A stretch of DNA of 64,000 nt from Minisyncoccota bacterium. GTDB lineage: Bacteria > Patescibacteriota > Minisyncoccia > Phycocordibacterales > BOKC01. Shown here in pieces: positions 38,243-63,468 of this stretch (its first letter is position 1; the number at the start of each line of letters is the position of its first letter). Under the pieces are notes generated by a model, which saw only the letters and a list, made by a program, of their open reading frames with translations, did not search any database and was not told where the DNA came from. The stretch covers positions 616,211 to 680,210 of the forward strand of contig CP129473.1 of the NCBI GenBank assembly GCA_030583745.1, written 5' to 3'. Position numbers and translations under genes: made by a program.

Positions 38243-38276
38243 TCTATCAACCATAAACTAAAAACTATAAACTGAT

Positions 38277-39479: not shown

Positions 39480-39518
39480 GTAGGGTATAGGGTCTAGGGT
39501 ATATAGCCAATAGGGAAA

Positions 39519-40472: not shown

Positions 40473-40497
40473 GCTTTCATTCTAAATGAGACCTACA

Positions 40498-40616
40498 GCA
40501 AGGAATTTGCTTGATAATTCCTTGATAAGAAAAACCCCCGCAAAACGGGGGTTTTTCTTTAAACTTCTAAAGTTTCCCACAACATCCTTACCTTATCAAG
40601 GAATTTCCTTGATAGA
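40498..40616. repeat. REP-like palindromic repeats (two copies) flanking the pilA terminator, upstream of the RAYT gene
   Basis: Perfect palindrome 'tatcaaggaatttccttgata' at 40593-40616 and a degenerate copy at 40498-40530. Confidence 0.8.
40535..40557 (+). terminator. Rho-independent terminator after pilA
   Basis: 'aaaaaccccc gcaaaac gggggttttt'. Confidence 0.8.
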
Positions 40617-40626
40617 ATAAAGGTAT

Positions 40627-41286: not shown

Positions 41287-41320
41287 TTTTTGCTTTTTTT
41301 GGTTTATAATTATTCTCATA

Positions 41321-41761
41321 ATGCATAGAAAAAATAAAGGCTTCACCTTGATAGAGCTCTTGGTGGTAATTTCTATTATTGGTGTTTTGGCTTCTATCGT
41401 TCTGGTCTCTCTTCAAAGCGCCAGGGAAAGAGCGCGACTAGCTGATGTTCAGAGTTCTTTAAGGTCAATTGTTCCTGCGGTAGTTTTATGCGTTGATTCT
41501 AATTCAGACCTTACTTGCGGACAATCGGGCCAGACCTTTCCTTGCACAGGTCAAGATGGCGGGGGGGACCAACCTTCAGCCGGCGTGCCAATATGTGGCA
41601 ATCTAAGCGCTACAGATGTTGCCTGGCCCAATTTACCAGCTGGCTGGAGTTATGGAAACAACGCAAGGACTAACCAAATAGAATCGACTTTTGAATATTC
41701 CGCAACTGGTAATGGTAATACCGTAACCTGCACTGAAACTGGCTGCCAAACAGAAAATTAA
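41321..41761 (+). CDS. Second type IV pilin or pseudopilin
   Basis: Prepilin motif KGFTLIELLVVISIIGVLASI. Start placed at MHRKNKG. Confidence 0.85.
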   Translation: MHRKNKGFTLIELLVVISIIGVLASIVLVSLQSARERARLADVQSSLRSIVPAVVLCVDSNSDLTCGQSGQTFPCTGQDGGGDQPSAGVPICGNLSATDVAWPNLPAGWSYGNNARTNQIESTFEYSATGNGNTVTCTETGCQTEN

Positions 41762-42628
41762 ATGACCATCTTTTTTTCTATTTCAATTTTTATTCTAGGA
41801 ACTTTAGTCGGTAGTTTTTTGAATGTGGTGACTCTGCGCTATGGCACGGATAGAGGTGTTGTTCGCAAGCGTTCTTCTTGCCCGTCGTGTAAAAAGGTCT
41901 TAGGTCCTGCCGAGCTCGTTCCAATCCTAAGTTTTATTTTGCAAAAGGGCAGATGCCGAAAGTGTAAGGCCAAAATTTCTTGGCAGTATCCGCTGGTGGA
42001 ATTTTTGACCGGCCTTGTTTTTCTCCTAGTTTTTTTAAAAGTTATCCTTTATCAAGGAAATTCCTTGATATCAAGGAATTTCCTTGATATGGGGACTATT
42101 GGAGAATTGTTTTTCTACTGGACAATCTTTTCTGTTCTAATTGCCATTTCAGTTTACGATTTCCATCATAAAATTATTCCGGATGAATTTGTTTTCACCT
42201 TTATCGCGCTTTCTTTTCTTGTCGGTTTTCTGGAATTTTTGAATTCCGGATTTTTAGCTTGGCTTTTGGCCGGACCCTTGATTGTCGCACCATTTTTTCT
42301 AATTTGGCTTTTTTCCGGCGGGCGTTGGATGGGCTTTGGCGATGTTAAGCTCGCGCTTGGTATCGGCTGGTTTCTCGGAATTGTCGGGGGAATTTACGCG
42401 ATCCTTTGGTCTTTTTGGATTGGAGGAGCAGTGGCGATTGTTCTTTTACTTTCAAAAAATTTTCTATCAACATTACCGTCCAAAGGCGCGTTGTTTTCAG
42501 AGCTTAAAGGGCTTACAATTAAGAGTGAAATCCCATTCGGTCCGTTTCTGGTCTTGGGCACGATGATTTATTTTTTTGCGGAACATGACTTTTTGGGGCT
42601 CGACATGTTTTTCAGACTAATTTTCTAG
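41762..42628 (+). CDS. pilD: Prepilin peptidase PilD (A24 family) with an in-frame tandem REP insertion
   Basis: Zn-finger CPSC...CRKC and peptidase A24 TM core. At 42051-42088 there are two head-to-tail 19-21-bp REP palindromes encoding ...YQGNSLISRNFLD... Confidence 0.88.
   Translation: MTIFFSISIFILGTLVGSFLNVVTLRYGTDRGVVRKRSSCPSCKKVLGPAELVPILSFILQKGRCRKCKAKISWQYPLVEFLTGLVFLLVFLKVILYQGNSLISRNFLDMGTIGELFFYWTIFSVLIAISVYDFHHKIIPDEFVFTFIALSFLVGFLEFLNSGFLAWLLAGPLIVAPFFLIWLFSGGRWMGFGDVKLALGIGWFLGIVGGIYAILWSFWIGGAVAIVLLLSKNFLSTLPSKGALFSELKGLTIKSEIPFGPFLVLGTMIYFFAEHDFLGLDMFFRLIF
42051..42088. repeat. Tandem pair of REP palindromes in opposite orientation inside pilD
   Basis: 'atcaaggaaattccttgat' plus 'atcaaggaatttccttgat'. 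Confidence 0.85.
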
Positions 42629-42644
42629 CCCCAACCTTTGTCTT

Positions 42645-43421
42645 ATGAAGAAAAATCAGAATCTTGAATCCGGCATCACACTGATTGAACTATTAGTCTC
42701 GATTTTTATTATTATCCTTATAACCTCTGTTGTTGTCTTTAACCATCGCGCCTTTACCGACAAACTGGAAATTACCAATCTGGCTTTTGATATTGCTCTC
42801 ACTATCAGGGAAGCGCAGGTTTCGGGCATTGCCGTAGAGCAGGCGCCTGATGTCGGGGGATTTGAAAACGCTTTCGGAGTCTCTTTTTTCATAAGGACAC
42901 AGCCGAGCGAGGGCGGAGATGTTAATAATGATAAAATTTTTATAAGATTCATAGATTTTGATTCGGAAGGTGATACTGATTTTTTAATGTATAACGGCAC
43001 TTACGATTGCACCGATTCAGAATGTTTGGAAAAAGTTGAAATAGGTCGTGGAAATAAAATAAGTCATATTTGCTACAGGAACGGAGGGGCTTTGAAGTGC
43101 GGTAGTCCGATAAGAAGTGAGCCGAGAGGGGTTGATATCGCCTTTTTAAGACCCAAGCCGGACGCTTCCATAAAATTCAGAGATGCGGGAGGGGAATATC
43201 TTTCAAGCGATGAAGGGGTATCTCTTGATAATTTGGAAGCGGTAATTTGTCTTGAGTCGCCCTTGGGTAGAAAAAAGAGCGTTCATGTTTTACCGACTGG
43301 TCAGATTTCGGTTCGAGACGGTGAAGGATGTCTTACACCTGGTGGCGGGCCGGGCGGAGGTGCTCCAGGAGGAGGTGGTCCAGGAGGAGGTGCTCCAGGA
43401 GGAGGTGGTCCACCCGGCTAA
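42645..43421 (+). CDS. Minor pilin or pseudopilin with a Gly/Pro-rich C-terminal tail
   Basis: Prepilin N-terminus GITLIELLVSIFII. The C-terminus GGGPGGGAPGGGGPGGGAPGGGGPPG comes from tandem ~21-bp repeats. Confidence 0.75.
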   Translation: MKKNQNLESGITLIELLVSIFIIILITSVVVFNHRAFTDKLEITNLAFDIALTIREAQVSGIAVEQAPDVGGFENAFGVSFFIRTQPSEGGDVNNDKIFIRFIDFDSEGDTDFLMYNGTYDCTDSECLEKVEIGRGNKISHICYRNGGALKCGSPIRSEPRGVDIAFLRPKPDASIKFRDAGGEYLSSDEGVSLDNLEAVICLESPLGRKKSVHVLPTGQISVRDGEGCLTPGGGPGGGAPGGGGPGGGAPGGGGPPG

Positions 43422-52123: not shown

Positions 52124-53923
52124 TTAAATCTCTTCTACTATCGGGACGCCTAAAATAGAAAGTCCGTTTTTTATTACTATTCCAACAGATTTTGTTAGTG
52201 CAAGCTTGTAATTTTCTCTCGGAGAACCGTCAAGGATCGGTTCTTTGGCATACCATGAATTAAAAGCAGAGCATATTTCTAGCAAGTATTGAGCAATGCC
52301 ATGCACAGATAAATCTGATCTGGCCATCTTAATGACGTCTGGTAAAAACAGAAGGAGCCACAGGAGCCTTTTTTCATCTTTCTGGTCATTGAAAATAAAT
52401 TTGGAAAAATCATGGGTATCTTTCGCCACTTCTTTTTTGCGTAAAATTGACTGAGTTCGAACGTATGTATACAAAATATAGATTCCAGAGTCACCTGATG
52501 TCTCTATTGATTTCTCGGTATCAAATGTAATGTCCTGTGTTCGATCCGGCTTAAGTAGAGCAAACTTTACTGAAGCAATTGCCAGACGTTCGGAAAGTTC
52601 TTCCATTATTTCTGAATCCACCTTACCTTCATTAAGAAAACGTTGATGGATCTTTTCTTTGACCTGATCAATCACATCATCAATAAGCACAACCGTGCCT
52701 TCTCTTGAAGACATTTTCTTAAACCCACCTGATTCTCCCTTCAGACCGACATACCCATAAGGAATATGTGTGAAATCATGAATGTCCCCGATACCCAACT
52801 GTTCACACACTGCAAAAAGCTGCTTCATGGCCAGAGATTGTTCTGGACCAATTACCCATACCAATTTATCGGCGCCATAACGGTTCTTTTTAAGAACAGT
52901 GAGAGCAATGTCCTGAGTGATATATAGAGATGTTCCGTCTCTCTTTAGTAATATCGTGTCTGAGATGTTATAAGCGGATAAATCGGTCAATATCGCACCA
53001 TCCTCTAATTGCTTAAAAATACCTTCCTTGAGACCGCGTTCAACATACTCTTTACCAGATTGATAATGCTCATGTTCATGCCATATAACATCCCAGTGAT
53101 TTTCTAACCGTGAAAGCGTTCTATTCATTCCTTCATATGCGTAGTTAAGAACATGAGACCAGAGATTCCATATTTGCTCATTATGATTTTCCCATTCGAC
53201 AACAAAGTTACGGACTTTATTCTCCACTTCAGAAGATTGTTTGAAATCGCTCTCTCCCAACACATAGCATTTGGTGACGAATAAATCAGGCTTTATCCCA
53301 ATTTCTGACGGAGCAAGCCATTCATCCTTATGAGAAATCCAGTAAGTAACATCGATTGGTAAATCATCTTTCTTTCTCATATGCGCAAGAAATCCCCACA
53401 TTAATTTTGCGATAGCTATACCGCGATTGTTATCCACCGCATCAGACACAACAGATGCTCCGTTCCATTTCAATAACCGAACAAGTCCCATGCCGACCAA
53501 ATTATTACGCAAGTGACCCAAATGCATTGCTTTGTTTGGGTTTGGGGATGTGTGTTCAACCACCCACTTTTCTCCAGATAAGTCAGTATTACTTCCAAAG
53601 CCTGATCCTTGATTTAAAATATCCTTAAGAAGACTGCTAAAAAAATCTTCGGAAAAAGTTATATTAATAAACCCTGGTTTTATTACTTCAATCGTTTTAA
53701 CATCTTTTATTTTTCTTGATAAAAGATGTCCGGCTATCTTATTCGCTAAAGCAAACGGGCTGATCTTTGCATTTTTTGAATATTTAAGAGCAATATTGCA
53801 CGTAACATCTCCCATTTCTTGACTCGGTGTCCTATCCAAACTCACCGCCGAAGTACTGATTTCAAAATCAGTAATACATTTTGCTATTTCAGATCGAATT
53901 GTTGCTAATGTCTTCGAATACAT
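52124..53923 (-). CDS. argS: Arginine--tRNA ligase
   Basis: HIGH motif HLGHLRNNLVGMG, class I Rossmann fold and a DALR anticodon-binding C-terminus. Confidence 0.92.
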   Translation of the reverse strand: MYSKTLATIRSEIAKCITDFEISTSAVSLDRTPSQEMGDVTCNIALKYSKNAKISPFALANKIAGHLLSRKIKDVKTIEVIKPGFINITFSEDFFSSLLKDILNQGSGFGSNTDLSGEKWVVEHTSPNPNKAMHLGHLRNNLVGMGLVRLLKWNGASVVSDAVDNNRGIAIAKLMWGFLAHMRKKDDLPIDVTYWISHKDEWLAPSEIGIKPDLFVTKCYVLGESDFKQSSEVENKVRNFVVEWENHNEQIWNLWSHVLNYAYEGMNRTLSRLENHWDVIWHEHEHYQSGKEYVERGLKEGIFKQLEDGAILTDLSAYNISDTILLKRDGTSLYITQDIALTVLKKNRYGADKLVWVIGPEQSLAMKQLFAVCEQLGIGDIHDFTHIPYGYVGLKGESGGFKKMSSREGTVVLIDDVIDQVKEKIHQRFLNEGKVDSEIMEELSERLAIASVKFALLKPDRTQDITFDTEKSIETSGDSGIYILYTYVRTQSILRKKEVAKDTHDFSKFIFNDQKDEKRLLWLLLFLPDVIKMARSDLSVHGIAQYLLEICSAFNSWYAKEPILDGSPRENYKLALTKSVGIVIKNGLSILGVPIVEEI

Positions 53924-54006: not shown

Positions 54007-55407
54007 ATGAAAACCCACAATTTTCTTATCGCTACAACAAGACCAGAACTGATCGTTCGACAAGTCAATGCCTTTATAAAAGTGAGAAATGGAAGGCAGA
54101 TAAATTTTTATATATTTGATGATAGTTATGACAAGAAAGAATACTTTTTAAGAGAAATTTCTAAGCTACCTAAGGACGAGGCGTGGGTGAAAGTCTTTTA
54201 TTTTAGCCTTGACCAACAGAAGGCAATGCTTCTGGACACTGCACGCAAATACTCCTTAAAACTTCATGTATCAGGAGAAGAAATACTGAAGTGTTTTGAG
54301 GAGAAAAATGAATTGCGGGGTATTAGAAGTATTCAAAACAAATCTATCCTGATCTTCTATTTAAAAAACAATCAAAACAACAGTATTATCCATAAAATTG
54401 ATGACGATATTCTACCATACGAAGCTGACAGACGAAATGGTCGCGTAGAAATAATTCCTAAATACGACTTCTTTCAACATAAGGAAAATGTCATAGGTCA
54501 TGACAAAAAAGTAATCTGCGGAAGTAACTATACTATTGATTCACCGAGTCCATTGGTGCACTATGCGGATTTTGCAGAGTTTGTATATAAGTTTCTTACT
54601 ATAGCTAAAACAAAAACGGAATCCGAATTGGTTGGAGAAAATACAGTCACCATCTCACCTTCTCAGGCGGAAGAGGTATTAGATATCCACAACATTGTTA
54701 AGCTATTACCAATAGGCAAAAATCATACTTTTGGAAGCGCTCTCAGGGAACTTGAAAATCATATAAATTTTTTTAATAAAGGAATCTCAAGAGTTGTTAT
54801 AAATGATAATCGTCTACAGGAAAAAGGGACTAATAAATTCTTTCCGGGTGGTTGCGTTTCTTTTCTCTACAATAATGTCCCTACACTCACACCACTCTTC
54901 GGGAATCAAGACCTTCTATGGGAACTTTTTGAGGCGCTTGATGGAAAAACAATTTTCACCGATGGTTGTATTGGGCACGTAAAATCAGAATCAAATCGAT
55001 CATCTATACTTGAAGATTTAAAAGACTCTTCTTACAAGCACCAAACATCTGTAACCTATGCGGTGTTCAGCCATTTAGTTAGTAAAAATAGAGACGGTTC
55101 TCTGCATGATTTTGAAAAGAATTTTGTACATTTAATGAATAAGTGGTTAGAGGAAGCACGAGATTACACAAAAGATATACTACGTATATTAAACCATGAA
55201 GATGGTCTTTGGTTTCGTTCCGTTCAATACAGAAATGTTCTAAATAACTTAAAAGTTATTCTGAATGAATTTGAAAAATCTTATGAAGAAATAAAATCAA
55301 ATTTCTCTTATTCAAATATAGATGCTGATCGAATCGTTACAGATTATTTTCAAAAGAAGGGCATTTTCGATAAGTTGTTAAAACAAATCATCTCCGAACA
55401 TGTTTAG
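54007..55407 (+). CDS. Hypothetical protein (466 aa), possibly a glycosyltransferase accessory or nucleotide-sugar transferase-like
   Basis: Lies in the glycosyltransferase cluster; no clear motif. Confidence 0.5.
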   Translation: MKTHNFLIATTRPELIVRQVNAFIKVRNGRQINFYIFDDSYDKKEYFLREISKLPKDEAWVKVFYFSLDQQKAMLLDTARKYSLKLHVSGEEILKCFEEKNELRGIRSIQNKSILIFYLKNNQNNSIIHKIDDDILPYEADRRNGRVEIIPKYDFFQHKENVIGHDKKVICGSNYTIDSPSPLVHYADFAEFVYKFLTIAKTKTESELVGENTVTISPSQAEEVLDIHNIVKLLPIGKNHTFGSALRELENHINFFNKGISRVVINDNRLQEKGTNKFFPGGCVSFLYNNVPTLTPLFGNQDLLWELFEALDGKTIFTDGCIGHVKSESNRSSILEDLKDSSYKHQTSVTYAVFSHLVSKNRDGSLHDFEKNFVHLMNKWLEEARDYTKDILRILNHEDGLWFRSVQYRNVLNNLKVILNEFEKSYEEIKSNFSYSNIDADRIVTDYFQKKGIFDKLLKQIISEHV

Positions 55408-56080
55408 CATCATCATACCAGTACATAACTCATTAAAAATTCTCTCAGAGAATCTGAAAAATATTTGCTCCCAGATTGAGGCGTCTGATGAGATTATTGT
55501 AGTTGACGATAAGAGTGATAATGCGATTGAAATCAAAGAATTGGCCTATAGCTATAATGCAAAATATTATTACATCAATCCACATTCAACATATAATCGA
55601 TGTCTGGCAATAAATACGGGAGTTAAAAATGCCAGTAATAAATGGATCGTGGAATTAGATCAGGATAAAATACCAAATAGTAACGATTATTTTAAAGCTA
55701 TACGCGAGGAAATATCAAAGAATGATGACTATAAAATCGTCAGGTTTGGACACACCACAAACCACTTTCCAATCGAAATCAAATTGAAATACATAGATAA
55801 AAACAATAAGGCGACCTTCAATGCAATAGTAGGAGGCAATACTTGCTATTCCAAGCAACTTTTTAATGAAGTTGGTGGATACGACACTAAATTTGATGGC
55901 AACAAAGGATTCCAAGATTTCGATCTTTTCTATCGTTTTCAAAAACATGGCGCCAAACTATGTTATATAAAATCAATGCTCGCAGATCATGTGGATTCTC
56001 ACCAAAAAACAAACCAGATGTACAAGAAAAATATGTCTAGATTTTTTAATAAACATGGGTTTTATCCAGAGGTCGACTGA
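55400..56080 (+). CDS. Glycosyltransferase family 2
   Basis: FSIIIPVHNS...IIVVDDKSDN (GT-A DxD). Confidence 0.85.
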   Translation: MFSIIIPVHNSLKILSENLKNICSQIEASDEIIVVDDKSDNAIEIKELAYSYNAKYYYINPHSTYNRCLAINTGVKNASNKWIVELDQDKIPNSNDYFKAIREEISKNDDYKIVRFGHTTNHFPIEIKLKYIDKNNKATFNAIVGGNTCYSKQLFNEVGGYDTKFDGNKGFQDFDLFYRFQKHGAKLCYIKSMLADHVDSHQKTNQMYKKNMSRFFNKHGFYPEVD

Positions 56081-56092
56081 ATGAAATAAACT

Positions 56093-57268
56093 ATGAAGCG
56101 TAAATCACTACTTATCCTCGCACCGCCTGTGCCGCCACACCACATAGGGGGCGATGGAAAATTTGCGCTTGATATCGCTACTGAATTAAGCAGGAGGGGT
56201 CAGAAAGTCACTATCTTAACCCCGTTTTATAATGGCAGTTTTATAGATGAGCGACCTAACGATTTTTTAAGAATAATCAGAGTCCCGATCAGTGATCCGC
56301 TCAGTAAAGACCCATGGGACGTGCCTATTTGGGATCCAGAATTTACAATAGGAAGAGACAAGGTTCTTTTGGAGCATATAAGAAACCTTAATCTAATAAA
56401 TAAAGATGTGTGGGTTCATGAGATAGGCGGGTCTATTTACAATCGGTTACTACTTACTTTAAAAAACCAGGAAGAACTGTTTTACAGTTGTCACATACAG
56501 ATTGTCTTAGAAAATTACGATAAACTCATACCAAATAACAGGGATTTGAAAAAGCTTACTCTTGAGTCGCAACGATTGCTTATTAAAAATGCTTCGATGG
56601 TGTTCTTTTTATCAAAATTTGATTTCATACCATTTCAATACGATGTTAAAGACTACCGAATAGTTCCTAATGGAGTTGAGCTATCCAAATTTGTTTTTAA
56701 AAAGCAAGTTGAAAGAGATGCGTGGTATCGCATCTTTATCGGAGGAAGGTTGCATGACAAAATGAAAGGAGCGACAGAAATGTTCCCGATCCTTAATATG
56801 ATTTTAGAAAAAGAAAAAATGGTTGAATTGCATGTCTGTGCTCCCGATAAAACGTACTTCGAGCACTTCAGCGCTGAAGCAATGAAGCATGTTCATTACC
56901 ATGGATGGATTTCAGTCCAAAAAACTCAAGAGATTATAGGACGCTGTGATTTAAGCCTCGTACCATCTCTTTATGAGCCGTTTGGATTACTTGCCCTTGA
57001 GTCTCTAGCAAACGGCATACCAGTACTTGGTACAAAGACCGGAGGATTATCGGAGATGATAATACCAAATACCAATGGGGACTTTATAGATACGCAATAT
57101 CCAAATAAAGTGAAAACTATACTCGAGTATTACATATCACGCAAAAATAATTTACAACAACGAGATATTCAAGACAGTATCAGGAGGACGGTCGAAAAAT
57201 ATGATATCAAAAATATTGCTAATCTCTATATTAATAATCTCGGAGAATTTCAAGCGTCTGAATGTTAG
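56093..57268 (+). CDS. Glycosyltransferase family 4 (GT-B)
   Basis: EPFGLLALESLANGIPVLGTKTGG (the E-x7-E region). Confidence 0.85.
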   Translation: MKRKSLLILAPPVPPHHIGGDGKFALDIATELSRRGQKVTILTPFYNGSFIDERPNDFLRIIRVPISDPLSKDPWDVPIWDPEFTIGRDKVLLEHIRNLNLINKDVWVHEIGGSIYNRLLLTLKNQEELFYSCHIQIVLENYDKLIPNNRDLKKLTLESQRLLIKNASMVFFLSKFDFIPFQYDVKDYRIVPNGVELSKFVFKKQVERDAWYRIFIGGRLHDKMKGATEMFPILNMILEKEKMVELHVCAPDKTYFEHFSAEAMKHVHYHGWISVQKTQEIIGRCDLSLVPSLYEPFGLLALESLANGIPVLGTKTGGLSEMIIPNTNGDFIDTQYPNKVKTILEYYISRKNNLQQRDIQDSIRRTVEKYDIKNIANLYINNLGEFQASEC

Positions 57269-58179
57269 ACATCTGCTACAAACTTCTTACGGAATCTATT
57301 TCTTAGCTTTATTAGCGATGGAAACAAAAATTCAGGACGCACAATGGCACGTTTTACATACATCCAGAGACTTTCCATGCGGCCAAAATGCCTTATTAAA
57401 ACTTTATGTTCTTCAGTTTTTCTAGTTCCTTGTTCTCTAATTTCCGCTAAAGAATTTTGGTGTATTCGATATCCAGCAGTGACTTCTGGTATATAGCCTA
57501 TCTTTGTGTTAACAATTTTTGCATATTCAAACGAAGAAAGCGCGATGTCCACATCCTCAGCGCACCCAATATTAGGATCAAATGGTCCATCAAAACCATA
57601 ACGTCTTTTAACCCACAAGGTTAATCCTTCCAAAAAGTCTTTCCTCCAACACATGGTCGGATATGGCATCTTGCCAAAAATCCAAAAATTCTTGTATGCC
57701 CTTTGAGGGTTAAGAGCTTTCCAAACAAGGCGACCAGGGATATCATTATCGAAAAAAATAAAAGCATCAGAATAGCCAAAAGAAAATTGATTTTTCTCCA
57801 TAAAAGATAATCTCAAACCGAGATTGGTAACGAGATCATCAGAATCAGTGAATGAAATATATTTATGGTTGGAAATATCAATACCTGCTATATTTTTATG
57901 CTTGAGGCATAACTCTATTGCATAGTTTCTTGCATTTGTCGAACTTAGTGGTTCTGCATGAGACTTTTCTCTTCTGATCACTCTTCGCGTTGGATGGTCG
58001 GCATATTTTTTGCTTAATACCGAGTACATATCATCAGTGCTTCCATCGTCGACGATTAAATGGAAAAGATTGTCGAGATTTTGCGAATCAACTGATTGTA
58101 TTGTTTGTTCAAGATATTGGCGTCTATTTAGAAACCTCTGATCTCCAGACCGAGAATAATATGTGGTAATTAGAATCAT
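57265..58179 (-). CDS. Glycosyltransferase family 2
   Basis: ILITTYYS...HLIVDDGSTDD. Confidence 0.85.
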   Translation of the reverse strand: MILITTYYSRSGDQRFLNRRQYLEQTIQSVDSQNLDNLFHLIVDDGSTDDMYSVLSKKYADHPTRRVIRREKSHAEPLSSTNARNYAIELCLKHKNIAGIDISNHKYISFTDSDDLVTNLGLRLSFMEKNQFSFGYSDAFIFFDNDIPGRLVWKALNPQRAYKNFWIFGKMPYPTMCWRKDFLEGLTLWVKRRYGFDGPFDPNIGCAEDVDIALSSFEYAKIVNTKIGYIPEVTAGYRIHQNSLAEIREQGTRKTEEHKVLIRHFGRMESLWMYVKRAIVRPEFLFPSLIKLRNRFRKKFVADV

Positions 58180-60449
58180 AAAGAATTGATAATTTTCTCA
58201 AGCAACTTTTCTAGATATTCAAGGTGCCCAGAAAAATCAGAGTCAGATGTGTGAGGATTTCCTATTGTAACCCCCAGAACACGCAATTTTTGCTTACTAG
58301 GAATAATTTTCTCCGTGACATCGATAATGTCAAAAGTGTGTATGCACATGTAGCCCTCCGTATACGTCAGATTGTGAAGTGATTGGTTGATTTGGTTTAT
58401 TAATGAAGAGTCGAAAGTGATGTCTGGATAGTGTGATTGAAGTTTTTCTGGTGAAATAGAGAAAACTACACTATTTAGCTCAACATTATTAAGAGCGATG
58501 AAGTACTTCGATTCATTCATTGTTATAGACCACTTTTTTGCTAGGCTGAAGCGGTAATCCACCAACTCTCCCACACCATCAACACCAAGATGCTTCATGA
58601 AGAACCATAATTTTAAACTATCGAATGGTCTGCTCCCTAAAAATGGTGTTATCTGCCCCAAATCAAATGAACCCTTTTGAATAGTAATATCTGTGGATTT
58701 ACTAATCAGCTGAAGGTCGGCTAGATCTCTAAAGAGTATTGCGCTTGAGGAATATGGTATACCCAACCCCTTGTGTGGATCGATACTGATTGAATCAGCC
58801 ATTTCAATTCCTTGCATTTTCGCCTTTAAATTTTTTGAAAACAAGGCCACACCGCCATGACACGCATCGACATGTAGCCATACACTATGTTTTCTTGTAA
58901 TCAGTGCTATTTTCTCAAAATTTTCGATGGTAGTTGTTCTCGAATCACCAGCTTGTGCTACCACCGCAACTACTTTTGATGTTTTACTATTGTTGTATGT
59001 AACGAGCTTTGTTTCCAAATCATCATAATCAAGACGGTAATCATTAAGCATATTTATCTTCACAATATTCTCTTCCCCCAAACCGAGCCACCAGAATGCG
59101 GCTATATGAGAATAATGATAAATGGTATCGCCGGTAATGAGTAAGATCGGCTTTATATTTGATTCTGTTAAACCTTGCTTTCGTGATTCTGGAAAAACCT
59201 TACAACGAGCAACTAAAAGTCCGATGGTATTTGCAAGAGTACCACCAGTAACCATCACTCCTCCCACATCCAAAGCATTTCCAGGGATTTCTTTTGGATT
59301 CGCAAAACCAATAAGCTGGCGAAGCCAGTGAATAACCTGCACTTCGACAAAAGTCCCGGTTGGTGCGCTCTTAGCAGTTGCTATAAGATTCTGATTTGTA
59401 AAACACTCTAAAATACTTGCCGCCAATGCGGATGTGGCATTTCCAGAATCAGGAAAAGCTAAATAATTTGGAGATGATTGTCTTATTGAACCATCAAGTA
59501 TTTTTGTTTGATATTCTGATATAACTTGCTCCAAAGCCTGACCTTTCTCAGGGATATTCTCTAACAGATTTGCTTGAACTTTTTGTTCCGGATAAAAATT
59601 TAAAACTTTATGGTGATTATTGGTAATAAAATCAACACCGATATCTAAGCACTTTCTAAAAACCTTTTCCCCATATTCCTTGCCAATATCGCCAAGAAAC
59701 TTACTCTTTAAATCAAACTCAGATTTATCTGTTAATCTATTTAATGAGTTGATAGCATTGGATCTTCGCACGGTATATTTGTTTTCTGAAATAAGCACTA
59801 AGCCCTGCTGTTCGAGTTTCGATAGTATCAGCGGTAGATGCCTATCCAGATATTGTCTCGTGTAATTTGTATTGCAGAAACCCAAATATTCTTTGCCCTC
59901 ATCTAATAATCGGGTTATTATTTCTTGCTGATCAAAAGTATCTTTGCTACCGGATAACAACAGTAACAGTATGATAGATTGAAGACATCTGGTTTTTAAT
60001 TCCTCAAAACTTGCCGGGTCGCCTATAATCAACTGACTGGGACCAGCGCAAGCACTCAACCATTGTCTATACTCGTTGAATGTTGTCCACTCATTCGCGG
60101 CAAGAGGTAAAATCTCTACATGTTTTTGATCGTAAGTAAATCCGTATCCAGCTATTGCTTTTTCCAACTCAGAACGAGTAATAAACTCACCCGGGTAATG
60201 TTCATCAGGAATAAGTGCATAATCAACGTGAAACTGGATAAAGAATTCCTTAAACTCGTCAACCTTAGATTGAATTAAACTTCCGTCTTTGAAGATAAGT
60301 AATAAATCAATATCACTCGCTGGTTTGTTCTCAAGGCGAGCTCGGGAACCAAAAATAACTGCATATTCAACCTCAGTCGGAAACTGTTCCATTATCTTAT
60401 TCGAAAGAGTATGGATTAATTCGTCTTGATTTTCTATGTTGAACATCAT
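58176..60449 (-). CDS. Fusion protein: N-terminal Pol-beta-type nucleotidyltransferase domain plus C-terminal PLP-dependent group II decarboxylase-like domain
   Basis: NTase motif VIFGSRARLENKPASDIDLLLIF. The PLP-binding Lys sits in SISIDPHKGLGIPYSSSAILF, in a fold-type I decarboxylase (DDC/GAD-like) region. Confidence 0.75.
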   Translation of the reverse strand: MMFNIENQDELIHTLSNKIMEQFPTEVEYAVIFGSRARLENKPASDIDLLLIFKDGSLIQSKVDEFKEFFIQFHVDYALIPDEHYPGEFITRSELEKAIAGYGFTYDQKHVEILPLAANEWTTFNEYRQWLSACAGPSQLIIGDPASFEELKTRCLQSIILLLLLSGSKDTFDQQEIITRLLDEGKEYLGFCNTNYTRQYLDRHLPLILSKLEQQGLVLISENKYTVRRSNAINSLNRLTDKSEFDLKSKFLGDIGKEYGEKVFRKCLDIGVDFITNNHHKVLNFYPEQKVQANLLENIPEKGQALEQVISEYQTKILDGSIRQSSPNYLAFPDSGNATSALAASILECFTNQNLIATAKSAPTGTFVEVQVIHWLRQLIGFANPKEIPGNALDVGGVMVTGGTLANTIGLLVARCKVFPESRKQGLTESNIKPILLITGDTIYHYSHIAAFWWLGLGEENIVKINMLNDYRLDYDDLETKLVTYNNSKTSKVVAVVAQAGDSRTTTIENFEKIALITRKHSVWLHVDACHGGVALFSKNLKAKMQGIEMADSISIDPHKGLGIPYSSSAILFRDLADLQLISKSTDITIQKGSFDLGQITPFLGSRPFDSLKLWFFMKHLGVDGVGELVDYRFSLAKKWSITMNESKYFIALNNVELNSVVFSISPEKLQSHYPDITFDSSLINQINQSLHNLTYTEGYMCIHTFDIIDVTEKIIPSKQKLRVLGVTIGNPHTSDSDFSGHLEYLEKLLEKIINSL

Positions 60450-60454
60450 AGTAT

Positions 60455-61261
60455 TTATTTATGCAATTCACTATTTAACTTCTCGACGAGAAACCCATGT
60501 AGATGGCCGTTACTTAAAATAGCTCCTTTTATTGGACAATCATAACGTTGATCTTCACCAAATAAGTCCGTTACCTTACCACCAGCCTCTTCAATAATAA
60601 TCTTTAGTGGAGCAATATCGTACAAAGTATCCCACCAAAATATCACCGCATCCGCTTTCCCCATAGCCAGATAAGAGCAGTGTTCTGAAAAAGAATAGAA
60701 ATCAAGATAATACTTCGCGTCTTTTATAATATCTTTAATGAATGCACTGGGGGCATATAGTGCATTTTTATCATACAGACCAAAAATCTTTGCATCGCTA
60801 ATGGATCTAGTATCTGATATAAATATTTGATCGCATTTTTGATAGTTAGTGATTTTAGTCTTAAACGCACCACCACCCTTAAACGCAAAAAGTATTCGGT
60901 TTAAAATAGGATTTGCAACCACACCAAGCACTGGGGCGCCATCATCCAGTAGGCCTACTGATATTGTCCAGTTCGCTGAACCCATTACGAATGCGTCTGT
61001 TCCATCTATCGGATCAATAACCCATTGGAAATTAGAATTTTTCTTGAGAGAGATTTCTTCTCCCAAAACACCTTCTCCGGGATATTTTATGCTTATTTCG
61101 CTAATAAATTTTTTATTTAGGAAAACATCCAATTCTGTCACTAATGAGCCATCATTCTTTGAGTGATTATCATTATTACCATTATTAAAATGCTCCAGAG
61201 CCTTGTTTGCATTTGACGAAATAAACTTGAGCAGAAAATCAAGTCTATTATTTAGTTCCAT
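60455..61261 (-). CDS. Inositol monophosphatase / 3'(2'),5'-bisphosphate nucleotidase family protein
   Basis: Motifs WVIDPIDGT and WDxxA (FWWDTLYDIAP). Confidence 0.85.
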   Translation of the reverse strand: MELNNRLDFLLKFISSNANKALEHFNNGNNDNHSKNDGSLVTELDVFLNKKFISEISIKYPGEGVLGEEISLKKNSNFQWVIDPIDGTDAFVMGSANWTISVGLLDDGAPVLGVVANPILNRILFAFKGGGAFKTKITNYQKCDQIFISDTRSISDAKIFGLYDKNALYAPSAFIKDIIKDAKYYLDFYSFSEHCSYLAMGKADAVIFWWDTLYDIAPLKIIIEEAGGKVTDLFGEDQRYDCPIKGAILSNGHLHGFLVEKLNSELHK

Positions 61262-61552: not shown

Positions 61553-61554
61553 AC

Positions 61555-61655
61555 TCAAGAATCAAACTCAACTGCTTTTTAGGGGCAGAAGTTTTGGCGG
61601 CGCGAAGCGCCGCATAAGGGGGGATGGGATTTCCGCGCGCTTCGCGCGCGTGAAG
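61555..61655. repeat. IR2-a: a ~100-bp GC-rich repeat, inverted relative to 63307-63410
   Basis: Identical 33-aa translation HAREARGNPIPPYAALRAAKTSAPKKQLSLILE on opposite strands. It contains the palindromic core 'cgcgcgcgaagcgcgcg'. Confidence 0.9.
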
Positions 61656-61920
61656 GAGGTTCAGAAAATTCTGATCCGAAAATTTTGGAGGGAGGATCAA
61701 AAGGCAGCTCTGCAAGTTTATGTGTGTTTACCCCACCCGCCCGTGCGCACACACCAATCATCGCCGTTTTTGCGGAGACATTATAAAACGGCGATGATTG
61801 CTCCCATGGAAAGTGCTATACTTTAAGTGCAATCAATCCGACAGGTCGTCTTTCCTAATGGCCGTCCCAGACAGTTCAAGGCGACTTGGATTGATTGCAC
61901 CGGGGCGGCCATTTAAGTTT

Positions 61921-63468
61921 ATGAAATATTTTCTATACGCTAGAAAATCTACTGATGTCGAGGACAAGCAAGTGCTTTCTATTGAAGCACAGCTTTCAGA
62001 GTTGAGAATTATTGCCAGAAATCAGGAGTTGGAAATTTTAGAAGAGTTTATTGAAAAACGAAGTGCAAAATCTCCAGGCCGCCCCACGTTCGGCGACATG
62101 ATGGCGCGGATTCAAAAGGGCGAAGCGAATGGCATTATTTGTTGGAAGGTAGACCGCCTCGCGAGAAATCCCGTGGATGGCGGACAAGTGCAGTGGCTTT
62201 TGCAGCAAGGTGTCATTCGCCACATTCAAACACACGACCGCTCGCACTATCCGAACGACAATGTGTTGATGATGTCCGTCGAGCTCGGGATGGCGAACGA
62301 GTACATACGCCAACTCTCCGCAAACACAGCACGGGGATTGCGGCAAAAAGCGAGGCAAGGAATTTATCCCGGACTCGCCCCTATCGGTTACATAAATGAT
62401 CCGCGCACCAAAACCATCCGCGTTCACAAGAAAAATGCCGCGCTGGTGCGCGAAATGTTTGAAAAGTACGCAAGCGGAAGCGCAACGCTCGACGGCCTCG
62501 CGACTTTTCTTGAAAACGCAGGCGTAATATCAAAAGGAAATCGTCGCGTCCATATCTCGCGCATCTCGTTCATTTTGCAAAATCCATTTTATTACGGACA
62601 CTTCCGCTACGCGGGCGAAGTGTACGAGGGAAATCACATGTCTCTCATTTCAAAAGCACTGTACGACAAGGCGAACGCAGTGCTTCGCGGACGTGGCCGG
62701 ACACTCGCCGTCAAAACCGATCCTGCGCCATACTGCGGACTCCTGCGTTGCGGCTTCTGCGGCATGGCAATCACGGCCGAGATGAAAGAGAAGCATCAGA
62801 AGAACGGGAATGTTCATCGCTACACATATTACCGATGTACACGCAAGAACAAGGCCGTGAGATGCAAAGAAGCGCCGATGCGAAGCGAGCTTTTGGACTC
62901 GCAACTTTCGGCGCTTCTTTCCGAATACACCATGTCGCAGGAGTGGGTATCTCCACTTTCGGAGATGCTGAATACAGAAGCCGCTAACGCTTCCAAAACG
63001 GCGGCGGAGGCCGTTCAAGAACTGCGAGACAAGTGCGAAAACATTTCTCGGCAAATAACGCGCTTGACGGACTTGTATGTTGCCGAGGACATCGAGCGCG
63101 AAGATTACTTGTCTCGCAGGCGTTCTCTTATGTCGGAACGCCGGACGATAGAAGAAAATATCGTCCGTCTTGAACGAGCCCCCGCTTTATGGGTTGAACC
63201 TGTCCGAAATTGGATAACGGACGCTTCAACACTGGACAAAATCGCGCAAGCGGAAGACCTCCTTTTGAAAAAATCATCCCTCCAAAAAATTTTCGGATTG
63301 AACCTCTCAATTCACGCGCGCGAAGCGCGCGGAAATCCCATCCCCCCTTATGCGGCGCTTCGCGCCGCCAAAACTTCTGCCCCTAAAAAGCAGTTGAGTT
63401 TGATTCTTGAGCCAACGGTCGGAATTGAACCGACGACCTCGCCCTTCGCTTTTACCCCTGTTTCCTAG
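61921..63468 (+). CDS. Large serine recombinase (resolvase/invertase catalytic domain, recombinase domain, zinc ribbon and coiled-coil)
   Basis: YARKSTDVEDKQVLSIEAQ holds the catalytic Ser; zinc ribbon CGLLRCGFCG...YYRC. The gene is GC-rich, about 55%. The ORF's last ~55 codons run through IR2-b and the antisense tRNA 3' exon, so the real stop is uncertain. Confidence 0.85.
   Translation: MKYFLYARKSTDVEDKQVLSIEAQLSELRIIARNQELEILEEFIEKRSAKSPGRPTFGDMMARIQKGEANGIICWKVDRLARNPVDGGQVQWLLQQGVIRHIQTHDRSHYPNDNVLMMSVELGMANEYIRQLSANTARGLRQKARQGIYPGLAPIGYINDPRTKTIRVHKKNAALVREMFEKYASGSATLDGLATFLENAGVISKGNRRVHISRISFILQNPFYYGHFRYAGEVYEGNHMSLISKALYDKANAVLRGRGRTLAVKTDPAPYCGLLRCGFCGMAITAEMKEKHQKNGNVHRYTYYRCTRKNKAVRCKEAPMRSELLDSQLSALLSEYTMSQEWVSPLSEMLNTEAANASKTAAEAVQELRDKCENISRQITRLTDLYVAEDIEREDYLSRRRSLMSERRTIEENIVRLERAPALWVEPVRNWITDASTLDKIAQAEDLLLKKSSLQKIFGLNLSIHAREARGNPIPPYAALRAAKTSAPKKQLSLILEPTVGIEPTTSPFAFTPVS
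63307..63410. repeat. IR2-b: copy of the 100-bp repeat that ends exactly at the tRNA-Thr(GGU) 3' end
   Basis: Identity with 61555-61655 (inverted) stops at 63410, which is the discriminator position of the minus-strand tRNA. Confidence 0.9.

What the first reader, a model, noticed from the sequence alone, without database searches (positions are those of the whole stretch)
58176..60449. Nucleotidyltransferase fused to a PLP-dependent decarboxylase in a glycosylation cluster
A minimal Pol-beta NTase domain (GSxxxxxxxxxSDIDLLLIF) is fused N-terminal to a ~500-aa fold-type I decarboxylase-like domain that carries the DPHK lysine. The gene is translationally coupled to a GT2 gene and is next to an IMPase-family phosphatase. 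This combination could make a nucleotide-activated decarboxylated amino acid or amine, for example for decorating a surface glycan. To my knowledge the architecture is not a described one.
Basis: partly seen in the sequence, partly recalled or inferred. Interest (0 to 1): 0.55.

Follow-up and report, generated by a model that had tools for sequence, protein, structure and literature searches.

The report
Nucleotidyltransferase–PLP enzyme fusion, conserved operon
A candidate-phyla (Saccharibacteria-like) bacterium encodes a real, conserved enzyme that joins an antibiotic-nucleotidyltransferase-like module to an unusual vitamin-B6 decarboxylase-like domain; it sits in a small operon with a sugar transferase and a phosphatase, so it probably makes a nucleotide-linked amine for a glycoconjugate, but its chemistry is untested.

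Summary
Window 58176-60449(-) is one uninterrupted 757-aa ORF: a Pol-beta NTase core (G34-S35, D46-I-D48), a conserved 'mid' domain with no Pfam match (aa 101-256), and a group-II-type PLP domain (K560, D528, H445). Its stop overlaps the GT2 start (ATGA), and an IMPase gene ends 5 nt upstream.

The fusion recurs in about 35 protein clusters from Patescibacteria. In DPANN archaea the same parts are separate, overlapping genes (NTase-mid, GT2, DC), so this is a Rosetta-stone functional link and not an artefact.

A phosphoesterase accompanies the module in most loci, but from different folds: PHP in most relatives, IMPase here, an EndoIV-type TIM barrel in one archaeal operon.

NTase-mid is a rare family (131 representatives among 1.84 billion proteins). 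It is also fused to CobD/HisC-like, BioF/SPT-like and ALDH enzymes and to MetRS.

The PLP domain belongs to an uncharacterised clade with AGDSRT and DAC[HQ]G motifs and no catalytic-loop Tyr.

Best reading (confidence about 0.4): nucleotidyl transfer is coupled to PLP-dependent decarboxylation of a hydroxy- or phospho-amino acid, giving a nucleotide-linked amino alcohol used with the GT2.

The recurrent linkage to argS and metS is unexplained.

The parts
58176..60449 (-). Whole fusion ORF, 757 aa (NTase core, mid domain, linker, PLP domain); the end coordinate range includes the stop codon
60150..60449 (-). Pol-beta-type NTase core, aa 1-100. G34-S35 lies at 60345-60350 and D46-I-D48 at 60306-60314. 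The third carboxylate is a candidate only: D82 (60204-60206) or the invariant E88 (60186-60188).
   Evidence: Pfam above GA; profile matches to MNT 9XBD (E=3.6e-11) and to KNTase; motif conservation; coordinates
59682..60149 (-). 'Mid' domain, aa 101-256: helical with a winged-helix-like hairpin. Invariant residues are G101/G103, R128, G143 and G253. It has no Pfam or PDB sequence match. It is retained even in relatives that lost the NTase active site.
59571..59681 (-). Helical linker, aa 257-293, with lower model confidence
58179..59570 (-). Group-II-type PLP domain, aa 294-757. Key residues: stacking H445 (59115-59117), D528 (58866-58868), PLP K560 (58770-58772). Clade-specific features: D502-S-R504 (58938-58946), C530-H531 (58857-58862), and the S585-T-D-I-T589 catalytic loop without Tyr (58683-58697).
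57265..58179 (-). GT2 glycosyltransferase, 304 aa, soluble. Its start overlaps the fusion stop (ATGA). It is a conserved partner: directly downstream of the fusion in CPR loci, and between NTase-mid and DC in archaea.
60455..61261 (-). IMPase-family phosphatase, 268 aa. Its closest curated families are HisN histidinol-phosphatase and IMPase, both below cut-off. It is the first gene of the operon and occupies the slot held by a PHP phosphoesterase in relatives.
54007..57268 (+). Variable glycosyltransferase island on the opposite strand: an unknown 466-aa protein, a 226-aa GT2 and a 391-aa GT4. Relatives carry a sulfotransferase plus a 216-aa unknown at the same place.
52124..53923 (-). argS (arginyl-tRNA synthetase). 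It is linked to the module in at least 10 loci. The meaning of this linkage is unexplained.

Best explanation
The ORF encodes a genuine bifunctional enzyme of a small, conserved pathway found in Patescibacteria (CPR) and DPANN archaea.

Its N-terminal 256 residues are a two-domain small-molecule nucleotidyltransferase. It has a Pol-beta core with an intact GS/DxD site, followed by a helical, winged-helix-like acceptor-binding domain. The overall architecture resembles aminoglycoside nucleotidyltransferases (ANT) and the CDP-DAG synthase Tam41. The C-terminal part is a divergent group-II-type PLP enzyme with the cofactor-binding residues intact.

Inferred mechanism: the NTase module transfers an NMP from an NTP onto a hydroxyl or phosphate of a hydroxy- or phospho-amino acid, or onto its decarboxylated product. 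The PLP domain removes the alpha-carboxylate. Together they give a nucleotide-linked amino alcohol or amine. The translationally coupled GT2 builds or modifies the sugar part of the same product, which could be a surface-glycan decoration or a soluble glycoside. The accompanying phosphoesterase (IMPase here, PHP or an EndoIV-type TIM barrel elsewhere) removes a phosphate or nucleotide handle.

Shown here: the fusion is real and conserved; the parts are functionally linked; the catalytic motifs are present; the module is associated with a phosphoesterase and with enzymes that make amino alcohols.

Inferred, not shown: the identity of the substrate, which nucleotide is used, the order of the steps, and the final product.
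For: 1. Rosetta stone. The module is fused in about 35 CPR clusters. It is split into overlapping genes in Woesearchaeota: NTase-mid(245 aa)-GT2(304)-DC(520) in L016 and L014, and DC-NTase-mid in L015. It is also split in L013, L088, L095 and L096.

2. GT2 partner. A GT2 of the same type lies directly downstream or between the parts in 11 loci, including after the standalone NTase-mid genes in L072/L073. No GT2 lies next to the fusion in the three unique loci where the NTase site is degenerate (L005, L006, and L086 on a 2.2-kb contig).

3. Non-orthologous displacement of the phosphoesterase. A PHP (HisJ-like) gene is upstream in 11 of 14 CPR loci. Here it is a HisN-like IMPase. In archaeal L016 it is an EndoIV/xylose-isomerase TIM barrel whose best hit is the CbiR phosphodiesterase.

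4. Fold. The N-terminal model (pLDDT 87) matches ANT(4'), AAD(9), MNT, LinB and Tam41, with best TMq 0.37 for Tam41. The full-length model has pTM 0.81, which implies a fixed domain arrangement.

5. NTase-mid is an active-looking family. About 90 of 130 relatives keep GS...SD[ILV]D.

6. Other partners of the module make amino alcohols or their phosphates: CobD/HisC-like PLP enzymes (P0124: CobD 206 bits, HisC 166 bits), a BioF/SPT-like oxoamine synthase next to a ketosphinganine-reductase-like SDR, and an APH/choline-kinase-type kinase in L006 where the NTase site is lost.

7. Precedents. NTases fused to biosynthetic enzymes for nucleotidyl activation, with later hydrolysis: Ppm-PntC and Fom1/FomD (PMC6697681). 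PLP decarboxylation of a nucleotide-linked aminocarboxypropyl group by MccE (PMC11350588). NMP transfer to a phosphomonoester by the NTase plus winged-helix enzyme Tam41 (PMC7018664).
Against: No substrate, nucleotide or product is identified, and nothing was tested biochemically.

A phosphomonoesterase next to an enzyme that would activate a phosphomonoester looks counterproductive unless it acts later in the pathway.

No dedicated phospho-alcohol transferase (LicD-like) is conserved in the operon.

The GT2 is absent from 7 loci (L003, L005, L006, L011, L015, L077, L158).

The NTase site is degenerate (D46 to N, or lost) in several fused lineages while the mid domain persists. The mid domain therefore has a role beyond catalysis.

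The PLP clade lacks the canonical catalytic-loop Tyr, with Ile/Leu/Asp at the position aligned to 4RIT Y333. The reaction may not be a simple decarboxylation.

The fold matches to ANT and Tam41 are weak (TM 0.30-0.37).

The model does not explain the recurrent aaRS linkage, including a direct NTase-mid::MetRS fusion.
Confidence: 0.4

Rival explanations
1. Regulatory module. The NTase-mid part is a protein AMPylase or uridylylase, like GlnE/GlnD or MntA. It covalently modifies the PLP enzyme it is attached to, or other partner enzymes, to control consumption of an amino acid. The phosphoesterase removes the modification.
For: The same module is attached to many different amino-acid-using enzymes: group II DC, CobD/HisC-like, BioF-like, ALDH and MetRS. 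It sits next to aaRS genes. The closest sequence relatives of the core are MNT AMPylases. GlnE appears among the fold matches. PHP and EndoIV-type enzymes can cleave phosphodiesters.
Against: The tight operon coupling with a GT2 has no role in this model. An IMPase is a monoesterase and an unlikely de-AMPylase. The two-domain architecture is closest to small-molecule NTases. There is no HEPN Rx4-6H motif. The enzyme persists in lineages with a dead NTase site.
Confidence: 0.15
2. Translation-linked metabolite. The NTase-mid and PLP enzymes make an aminoalkyl- or aminoacyl-like nucleotide, a stable mimic of an aminoacyl-adenylate. This compound targets or regulates the neighbouring aminoacyl-tRNA synthetase. 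The linked synthetase would be the co-inherited resistant or regulated target.
For: argS lies within 8 kb in at least 10 CPR loci. This holds even where the ArgRS is only 23-29% identical to the window's (L004, L005, L077), while the L077 fusion is still 57% identical. MetRS lies next to the split module in two unrelated archaeal contexts, and it is directly fused in P0106. An ALDH::LysRS fusion lies next to a standalone NTase-mid gene. P0144 carries a RimL-like GNAT. The RimL-related MccE C-terminal domain detoxifies processed microcin C, and the MccE N-terminal domain is a PLP decarboxylase acting on a nucleotide-linked amino acid (PMC11350588).
Against: The linkage could be vertical synteny within small genomes, or co-regulation by the same amino acid. 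No second aaRS copy was shown. Decarboxylating arginine or methionine does not give a close adenylate mimic. The roles of the GT2 and the phosphoesterase are not obvious. There is no transporter or immunity gene in the operon.
Confidence: 0.12
3. An ordinary amino-acid decarboxylase (for example arginine to agmatine, or serine to ethanolamine) whose N-terminal extension is only structural, such as an oligomerisation or lid domain. The neighbouring GT2 and phosphatase would be unrelated cell-envelope genes.
For: The PLP site is intact. Some lineages lost the NTase motifs or the whole core but kept the mid domain. The best curated-family hits are PanP and DABA decarboxylases. argS and a VioC/GntD-like arginine-type hydroxylase are neighbours.
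Against: The GS/DxD site is strictly kept in the clade that contains the window protein, and in most of the wider NTase-mid family including the split archaeal genes. Overlapping start and stop codons with the GT2 and the phosphoesterase recur across bacteria and archaea. The catalytic-loop Tyr of ordinary group II decarboxylases is missing.
Confidence: 0.1
4. A toxin-antitoxin or anti-phage defence component, that is an MNT-type antitoxin, or a Hailong HalB-like or CD-NTase-like enzyme.
For: There are weak matches of aa 6-78 to MntA, HalB and PADLOC PDC-S09/PDC-M05A models. The neighbouring GT4 has a secondary hit to PF20706 'GT4-conflict'.
Against: All of these matches are far below the family cut-offs and cover only the generic NTase core. 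There is no HEPN partner. The module is fused to a metabolic enzyme in a conserved chromosomal operon. None of the neighbours match PADLOC.
Confidence: 0.03

Closest known systems
Group II PLP-dependent decarboxylases (Pfam PF00282: GAD, CSAD/GADL1, DDC, DABA decarboxylase, DfoJ; closest structures 8ZPI and Sphaerobacter 4RIT/4RJ0)
   Same: The fold-type I architecture is the same, and the PLP Lys (K560), the Asp to the pyridine N (D528) and the stacking His (H445) are present. Pfam score is 160.6 bits. Foldseek gives TMt about 0.70 and E about 1e-26.
   Different: Identity is only 20-24%, and no NCBIfam equivalog cut-off is approached. Clade-specific motifs are AGDSRT (canonical AGTTxTG) and HVDAC[HQ]G (canonical HVDAAYGG). 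The catalytic-loop Tyr is replaced: D587/I588 align with 4RIT Y333. There is a 293-residue N-terminal NTase-mid extension.
Aminoglycoside and lincosamide nucleotidyltransferases (ANT(4')/KNTase, AAD(9), LinB)
   Same: A Pol-beta core with GS...DxD is followed by a helical second domain. These are the best Foldseek E-values for the N-terminal model (1e-4, probability 1.0), and the profile finds KNTase at E=2e-5.
   Different: TM-scores are only about 0.30. The NCBIfam ANT(4')-I score is 17 bits against a cut-off of 350. The mid domain has no sequence match to any solved structure. The genomic context is biosynthetic, not resistance.
Tam41 mitochondrial and bacterial CDP-DAG synthase
   Same: An NTase domain plus a winged-helix domain form one pocket. 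It gives the best TM-score of all PDB matches (0.37). It shows that this fold can transfer NMP onto a phosphomonoester to give an NDP-activated product.
   Different: There is no detectable sequence similarity, no membrane-binding tail and no lipid context. The structural similarity is weak.
Nucleotidyl activation by NTases fused to biosynthetic enzymes (Ppm-PntC for CMP-2-aminoethylphosphonate; Fom1 CyTase with the FomD hydrolase)
   Same: The logic is the same: an NTase is fused to the enzyme that makes a small phospho- or amino compound, glycan genes lie nearby, and in fosfomycin biosynthesis the nucleotide is later removed by hydrolysis.
   Different: Those NTases are of the LicC/MobA or cytidylyltransferase folds (PF12804, PF01467), not Pol-beta. 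Their partner is PEP mutase, not a PLP enzyme.
MccE of microcin C maturation
   Same: A PLP decarboxylase acts on a nucleotide-linked 3-amino-3-carboxypropyl group, in a two-domain protein with a RimL-like GNAT. The product is an aminoacyl-adenylate mimic that hits an aaRS.
   Different: The MccE decarboxylase belongs to group IV (fold type III). Adenylation is done by an E1-like MccB, not a Pol-beta NTase. There is no peptide precursor here.
MNT antitoxins of MNT-HEPN modules (MntA; 9XBD_E)
   Same: They are the closest sequence relatives of the NTase core, with E=3.6e-11 over profile positions 4-78.
   Different: There is no HEPN toxin partner and no Rx4-6H motif. An additional conserved mid domain is present, and the module is fused to a metabolic enzyme. 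The NCBIfam MntA score is 23.5 bits against a cut-off of 60.

Membership tests
Group II PLP decarboxylase (PF00282) | Profile score above the Pfam gathering threshold | tested here: met
   160.6 bits against 27, aa 294-665
Group II PLP decarboxylase (PF00282) | Schiff-base lysine in the S-x-x-x-x-H-K motif, Asp to the pyridine N, stacking His | tested here: met
   K560 (DPHK), D528 and H445 are invariant in 28 family members and align with the corresponding residues of 8ZPI, 4RIT and GADL1
Group II PLP decarboxylase (PF00282) | Catalytic-loop tyrosine that protonates C-alpha after CO2 loss (Y333 in 4RIT; Y332 in DDC from my own knowledge) | tested here: not met
   4RIT Y333 and the 8ZPI Tyr align to D587/I588. 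The whole clade has S-x-D-[IL] there. The only nearby aromatic position (595) varies between F, Y, S and T. Alignment in a flexible loop is uncertain by one or two residues.
Any curated decarboxylase equivalog (PanP, DABA-DC, MfnA, TyrDC, HDC) | NCBIfam score above the curated cut-off | tested here: not met
   PanP 163 against 606; DABA-DC 130 against 900; MfnA 81 against 299
Pol-beta superfamily nucleotidyltransferase (PF18765 / PF01909) | Profile above the gathering score; hG[GS] and [DE]h[DE]h motifs | tested here: met
   29.6 against 26.9 and 29.1 against 21 bits. G34-S35 and D46-I-D48 are conserved in the clade that contains the window protein.
Pol-beta superfamily nucleotidyltransferase (PF18765 / PF01909) | Third metal-binding carboxylate on a neighbouring strand | tested here: inconclusive
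   Candidates are D82 and the invariant E88, which lies at the start of strand 88-91 of the model. No coordinates were available to check the geometry.
MNT-HEPN toxin-antitoxin (MntA) | HEPN partner with an Rx4-6H RNase motif; equivalog score | tested here: not met
   MntA scores 23.5 against 60 bits. There is no HEPN gene nearby. The mid domain has no Pfam HEPN hit.
Aminoglycoside nucleotidyltransferase ANT(4')-I | Equivalog score; two-domain fold with the acceptor bound between domains | tested here: inconclusive
   The sequence test fails (17 against 350 bits). The fold is similar only at a low TM-score (0.30, E=1e-4).
LicC/PntC-type phospho-alcohol cytidylyltransferases | MobA/GlmU-like NTP_transferase fold (PF12804/PF00483) | tested here: not met
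   No such Pfam hit; the core is of Pol-beta type. The analogy is functional only.
Inositol monophosphatase family (the neighbouring gene) | PF00459 above threshold; a specific equivalog (HisN, CysQ, SuhB) | tested here: inconclusive
   Pfam is met (143 against 27 bits). HisN scores 138 against 275 and CysQ 84 against 229, so both are not met. The family is certain; the substrate is unknown.
Glycosyltransferase family 2 (the neighbouring gene) | PF00535 above threshold; DxD motif | tested here: met
   39.5 against 23.3 bits. The sequence shows the VDDGS and DSDD motifs. No equivalog cut-off is reached.

The most novel reading that the evidence does not exclude
The NTase-mid module and its PLP partners form a biosynthetic system, specific to CPR bacteria and DPANN archaea, for aminoalkyl or aminoacyl-like nucleotides. 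These would be stable mimics of aminoacyl-adenylates that act on the aminoacyl-tRNA synthetase encoded next to, or fused to, the module (ArgRS in CPR; MetRS and LysRS elsewhere). They could serve either as a weapon of these episymbionts against their hosts, with a co-inherited insensitive synthetase, or as a regulator of tRNA charging.
Probability: 0.1. Interest if true: 0.85.

Novelty: new variant of a known kind. Interest (0 to 1): 0.6.

Why it matters
CPR bacteria and DPANN archaea have tiny genomes and almost no biosynthetic capacity. A multi-gene module that they conserve, exchange and repeatedly fuse is therefore likely to matter for their surface or for their interaction with hosts.

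The locus defines three uncharacterised things at once:
- a rare two-domain Pol-beta NTase family with a 'mid' acceptor domain that has no Pfam or PDB sequence match;
- a distinct clade of group-II-like PLP enzymes without the canonical catalytic tyrosine, which also occurs in NRPS-like and radical-SAM contexts in cultured bacteria;
- a recurrent, unexplained linkage of both to aminoacyl-tRNA synthetase genes.

If the chemistry is nucleotidyl activation of an amino alcohol, it would add a Pol-beta-fold route to the LicC/PntC type of surface tailoring. If the aaRS link is functional, it could reveal a new class of adenylate-mimic metabolites.

Tried and rejected
Frameshift or assembly artefact: rejected. 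The identical ORF occurs in independent assemblies, and there are many fused homologs.

Defence or toxin-antitoxin role: PADLOC and NCBIfam gave only generic matches to the NTase core, and there is no HEPN.

Sequence search of the mid domain against PDB and Pfam: nothing.

Four literature searches for the fusion, for phosphoserine decarboxylases, and for aaRS/ALDH/NTase fusions in CPR found no description.

Membrane or lipid role (Tam41-like CDP-DAG synthesis): considered, but no hydrophobic segment is present (maximum Kyte-Doolittle 1.5), and the other partners of the module are amino-acid enzymes.

PAP-phosphatase/sulfation idea (sulfotransferase in L001 plus CysQ-like or PHP phosphatases): dropped, because the sulfotransferase is limited to one sub-lineage (L001, L008/L079, L080/L091) and the phosphatases score better as HisJ/HisN-like.

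Promoter and terminator scan of the operon: no signal above the shuffled expectation.

The unknown 466-aa island protein: no Pfam, NCBIfam or PDB match.

Full report
1. THE OBSERVATION

Window 58176..60449 on the minus strand is one uninterrupted 757-aa ATG ORF. Pfam places a Pol-beta NTase core at aa 19-84. PF18765 scores 29.6 bits and PF01909 scores 29.1 bits, both above their gathering scores. Pfam also places a pyridoxal-dependent decarboxylase domain at aa 294-665 (PF00282, E=5.9e-47).

They are G34-S35, S45-D46-I47-D48 and the D-P-H-K560 lysine.

The stop codon of the fusion overlaps the ATG of a 304-aa GT2 gene (ATGA). A 268-aa IMPase-family gene ends 5 nt before the fusion start. None of the three proteins has a hydrophobic segment.

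The rest of the window looks like an ordinary small chromosome of about 40% GC. It carries type IV pilus genes, ligA, gatA, tRNAs and a tmRNA.

The identical protein is NCBI WKZ26463.1, on a 691,769-bp contig of a 'Candidatus' MAG. An independent assembly from another run has the same gene order (L157). The fusion is therefore not an artefact.

2. THE FUSION RECURS, AND ELSEWHERE IT IS SPLIT

A search of 5.8 billion clusters found 53 relatives. About 35 of them have the fused length of 650-775 aa and reach down to 38% identity. None carries more than a generic name.

Genome and metagenome scans place the fused form in Saccharibacteria, Nomurabacteria, Roizmanbacteria and other Patescibacteria.

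In Woesearchaeota (DPANN archaea) the same parts are separate, overlapping genes. L016 and L014 read NTase-mid (245 aa), then GT2 (304 aa, 40-44% identical to the window GT2), then DC (520 aa). L015 reads DC, then NTase-mid. Split versions also occur in L013, L088, L095 and L096. Standalone NTase-mid genes are followed by an overlapping GT2 of the same type in L072/L073.

Fusion in one lineage and adjacent genes in another, in different orders, is classical Rosetta-stone evidence. It indicates that the NTase-mid module, the PLP enzyme and the GT2 work together.

3. THE CONSERVED NEIGHBOURHOOD

I counted each distinct locus once.

- PHP phosphoesterase: directly upstream of the fusion, often overlapping it, in 11 of 14 CPR loci that have upstream flank.
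- GT2: directly downstream in 8 CPR loci, plus the archaeal and standalone cases.
- argS: within 8 kb in at least 10 loci.

The window is unusual in carrying an IMPase where relatives have the PHP gene. L005 has a TauD-family oxygenase at that position. Its best curated matches are the arginine-type beta-hydroxylases GntD and VioC.

The PHP proteins are closest to HisJ-type histidinol-phosphate phosphatases. The IMPase is closest to HisN and to Thermotoga IMPase. All of these scores are below the curated cut-offs.

In archaeal L016 the gene after the DC is an EndoIV/xylose-isomerase TIM barrel. Its best match is the cobamide-remodelling phosphodiesterase CbiR.

Three unrelated phosphoesterase folds occupying one operon role argue that a phosphoester hydrolysis step belongs to the pathway.

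The stretch between the GT2 and argS is variable. Here it holds a GT4, a GT2 and an unknown 466-aa protein. In the L001 lineage it holds a sulfotransferase and a 216-aa unknown. In L003 and L077 it holds a methyltransferase.

4. THE N-TERMINAL MODULE

The alignment of 28 family members (A1) shows that GS...SDxDL is kept throughout the clade that contains the window protein. In P0027 and P0029-31 the first Asp is replaced by Asn. In P0033, P0034 and P0037 the motif is lost. In P0035 and P0036 the core is absent.

Residues 101-256, the 'mid' domain, are conserved in all members. The invariant residues are G103, R128, G143 and G253.

The mid domain has no Pfam match and no sequence match in the PDB.

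The AlphaFold model of aa 1-295 is confident (pLDDT 87). It shows the NTase sheet followed by a helical domain with a winged-helix-like hairpin. Foldseek against the PDB returns ANT(4')/KNTase, AAD(9), MNT antitoxins, LinB, HalB, GlnE and the CDP-DAG synthase Tam41. Tam41 gives the best TM-score (0.37), and all TM-scores are low.

The full-length model has pTM 0.81, which implies a defined arrangement of the two halves.

A profile of the mid domain alone, searched against 1.84 billion representative proteins, found only 131 proteins. Most are standalone NTase-plus-mid proteins of 240-290 aa. About 90 of 130 keep GS...SD[ILV]D. NTase-mid is therefore a rare family that generally looks catalytically competent.

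5. OTHER PARTNERS OF THE MODULE

The long proteins in that family are fusions to other enzymes.

- P0124 and P0168 are fused to a class I/II PLP enzyme whose best curated matches are CobD threonine-phosphate decarboxylase and HisC histidinol-phosphate transaminase.
- P0182 is fused to a BioF/Kbl/serine-palmitoyltransferase-like oxoamine synthase. It lies next to an SDR whose matches include 3-ketodihydrosphingosine reductase.
- P0144 and P0195 are fused to an ALDH. P0144 also has a RimL-like GNAT.
- P0106 is fused to a complete MetRS.

In L006 the NTase site is lost, and an APH/choline-kinase-type kinase precedes the PHP gene.

CobD, HisC, the oxoamine-synthase/reductase pair, and choline-type kinases all make or handle amino alcohols or their phosphates. 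HisJ- and HisN-type phosphatases hydrolyse such a phosphate. This is the basis for proposing an amino-alcohol(-phosphate) intermediate.

In archaeal L158-L160, a DC of the same clade sits 4 nt upstream of the NTase-mid::CobD/HisC-like fusion. The two PLP enzymes are therefore partners in that system, not substitutes for each other.

6. THE PLP DOMAIN

The fold and the cofactor residues are those of group II decarboxylases. Foldseek gives TMt about 0.70 to CSAD, GADL1, DABA decarboxylase, TrpDC, DfoJ and the Sphaerobacter enzyme.

No curated equivalog is approached, and identity to solved structures is 20-24%.

Aligning all 53 relatives shows a distinct clade, P0001-P0049, that includes both fused and standalone members. 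It differs from canonical enzymes in three ways.

- It has AGDSRT where canonical enzymes have AGTTxTG.
- It has HVDAC[HQ]G where they have HVDAAYGG.
- It has S-x-D-[IL] in the catalytic loop at the position where 4RIT has Y333 and 8ZPI has its Tyr.

The closest PDB entries, 4RJ0 and 4RIZ, are themselves Y333N and Y333Q mutants, which points to depositor interest in that residue.

The clade therefore lacks the canonical proton donor. From my own knowledge, Tyr-to-Phe replacement turns plant aromatic decarboxylases into aldehyde synthases. Altered reaction specificity cannot be excluded here.

Family-specific invariant basic residues (K360, H448, R504) would suit an anionic side chain such as a phosphate ester. 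This is inference only.

Standalone members of the clade occur in several other contexts:
- next to other NTase-fold genes (L017, L023, and NTP_transf_5 in Laceyella L025);
- next to an NRPS-like A-T protein (L033, L034);
- next to a radical-SAM/SPASM gene (L018);
- in a flavin reductase, DC, GT2, aminotransferase row (L035).

7. HOW IT MOST LIKELY WORKS

The evidence establishes several things. The enzyme is real and bifunctional. It is linked to a GT2 and a phosphoesterase. It carries an ANT/Tam41-like small-molecule NTase module. It is associated with amino-alcohol chemistry.

From this I infer the following sequence, with confidence about 0.4. The NTase module puts an NMP on a hydroxyl (ANT-like) or a phosphate (Tam41-like) of a hydroxy- or phospho-amino acid or its amine. 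The PLP domain removes the alpha-carboxylate. The GT2 supplies or extends the sugar part. The phosphoesterase trims a phosphate or nucleotide handle.

Each step has a precedent.
- NTases fused to biosynthetic enzymes for nucleotidyl activation of a surface-tailoring amine (Ppm-PntC), and transient cytidylylation removed by FomD (PMC6697681).
- PLP decarboxylation of a nucleotide-linked aminocarboxypropyl group by MccE (PMC11350588).
- NMP transfer to a phosphomonoester by an NTase plus winged-helix enzyme (PMC7018664).

The substrate, the nucleotide, the order of steps and the product remain unknown.

8. WHAT DOES NOT FIT

The aaRS linkage is recurrent.

- argS lies beside the CPR module even where that ArgRS is only 23-29% identical to the window's (L004, L005, L077).
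- MetRS lies beside the split archaeal module in two different contexts, and is fused in P0106.
- An ALDH::class-I-LysRS fusion and a GTP-cyclohydrolase-II-like gene precede a standalone NTase-mid gene in L075.

This could be synteny in small genomes, co-regulation by the same amino acid, regulation of amino-acid enzymes by AMPylation, or a product aimed at the synthetase. The last is the most novel reading, and I give it about 0.1.

9. NOVELTY AND VERDICT

The domain families are known, and nucleotidyl activation fused to a biosynthetic enzyme is a known strategy. I therefore rate this 'new variant of a known kind'.

The particular architecture, the NTase-mid family, the Tyr-less PLP clade and the operon all appear to be undescribed. 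Four literature searches found nothing.

Interest is 0.6. This is a solid, conserved, cross-domain module in organisms with very little metabolism. It has clear experiments available and an intriguing unexplained link to translation enzymes, but no function has been demonstrated yet.

Noticed in passing
window 61554-61654 and 63311-63411 (recombinase ORF 61798-63468, + strand): A perfect 101-nt inverted repeat brackets a large serine recombinase gene (Resolvase, Recombinase and Zn-ribbon domains). The segment is about 50% GC against about 39% for the surroundings. Its left arm lies about 290 nt upstream of the IMPase-fusion-GT2 operon. It could be a mobile element or an invertible, phase-variation segment. 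The independent assembly L157 breaks exactly there. The ORF tail after the right arm reads like a translated tRNA T-arm, but no tRNA was called.
   Followed up: partly
window 54007-55407 (+): A 466-aa protein at the head of the opposite-strand glycosyltransferase island has no Pfam, NCBIfam, PADLOC or PDB match. Its start region contains an FYIFDDS stretch reminiscent of a GT-A DxD motif.
   Followed up: partly
window 27289-27364 (+): A tRNA-Ile with anticodon TAT (UAU). This suggests that AUA is decoded without lysidine in this organism.
   Followed up: no
L075 2360-5293 (+), also L076: A 977-aa fusion of an ALDH-like domain to a genuine class I lysyl-tRNA synthetase (TIGR00467, 383 bits, above cut-off). 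It is followed by a GTP-cyclohydrolase-II-like gene and an overlapping standalone NTase-mid gene.
   Followed up: partly
P0106 (805 aa); L015 4009-5772 (-); L158 9858-11561 (-): The NTase-mid module is fused N-terminally to a complete MetRS. MetRS genes also lie convergent to split DC/NTase-mid modules in two DPANN contexts.
   Followed up: partly
L033 and L034 9256-12640; L018 6941-8098; L025 9642-12308: Standalone members of the same Tyr-less PLP clade in cultured or named bacteria sit next to an NRPS-like A-T protein (Streptococcus, Pasteurellaceae), a radical-SAM/SPASM enzyme (Roseobacter), or an unknown 428-aa protein plus an NTP_transf_5 nucleotidyltransferase and argS (Laceyella).
   Followed up: partly
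L005 6966-7958 (+): In one Saccharimonadales lineage, the gene upstream of the fusion (which has D46 replaced by N) is a TauD-family oxygenase closest to the arginine/enduracididine beta-hydroxylases GntD and VioC. argS lies immediately downstream.
   Followed up: partly
L029 333-3539; L079 218-1045; L084 2783-5054: Decayed or frameshifted copies. There are fragmented NTase-mid, DC and GT2 remnants on a contig binned as Acidobacteriaceae, which may be a mis-binned CPR contig. The PHP gene is split in L079, and the fusion is split in two frames in L084.
   Followed up: no
window 56093-57268 (+): The GT4 of the island has a secondary Pfam hit to PF20706 'GT4 in conflict systems' (E=5e-9). This hit is weaker than its hits to the general GT4/GT1 families, and there is no PADLOC match.
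   Followed up: no
window 34604-43421 (+): A type IV pilus gene cluster: PilB-like and PilT-like ATPases, a PilC-like platform protein and a prepilin peptidase. This is typical of episymbiotic Saccharibacteria.
   Followed up: no
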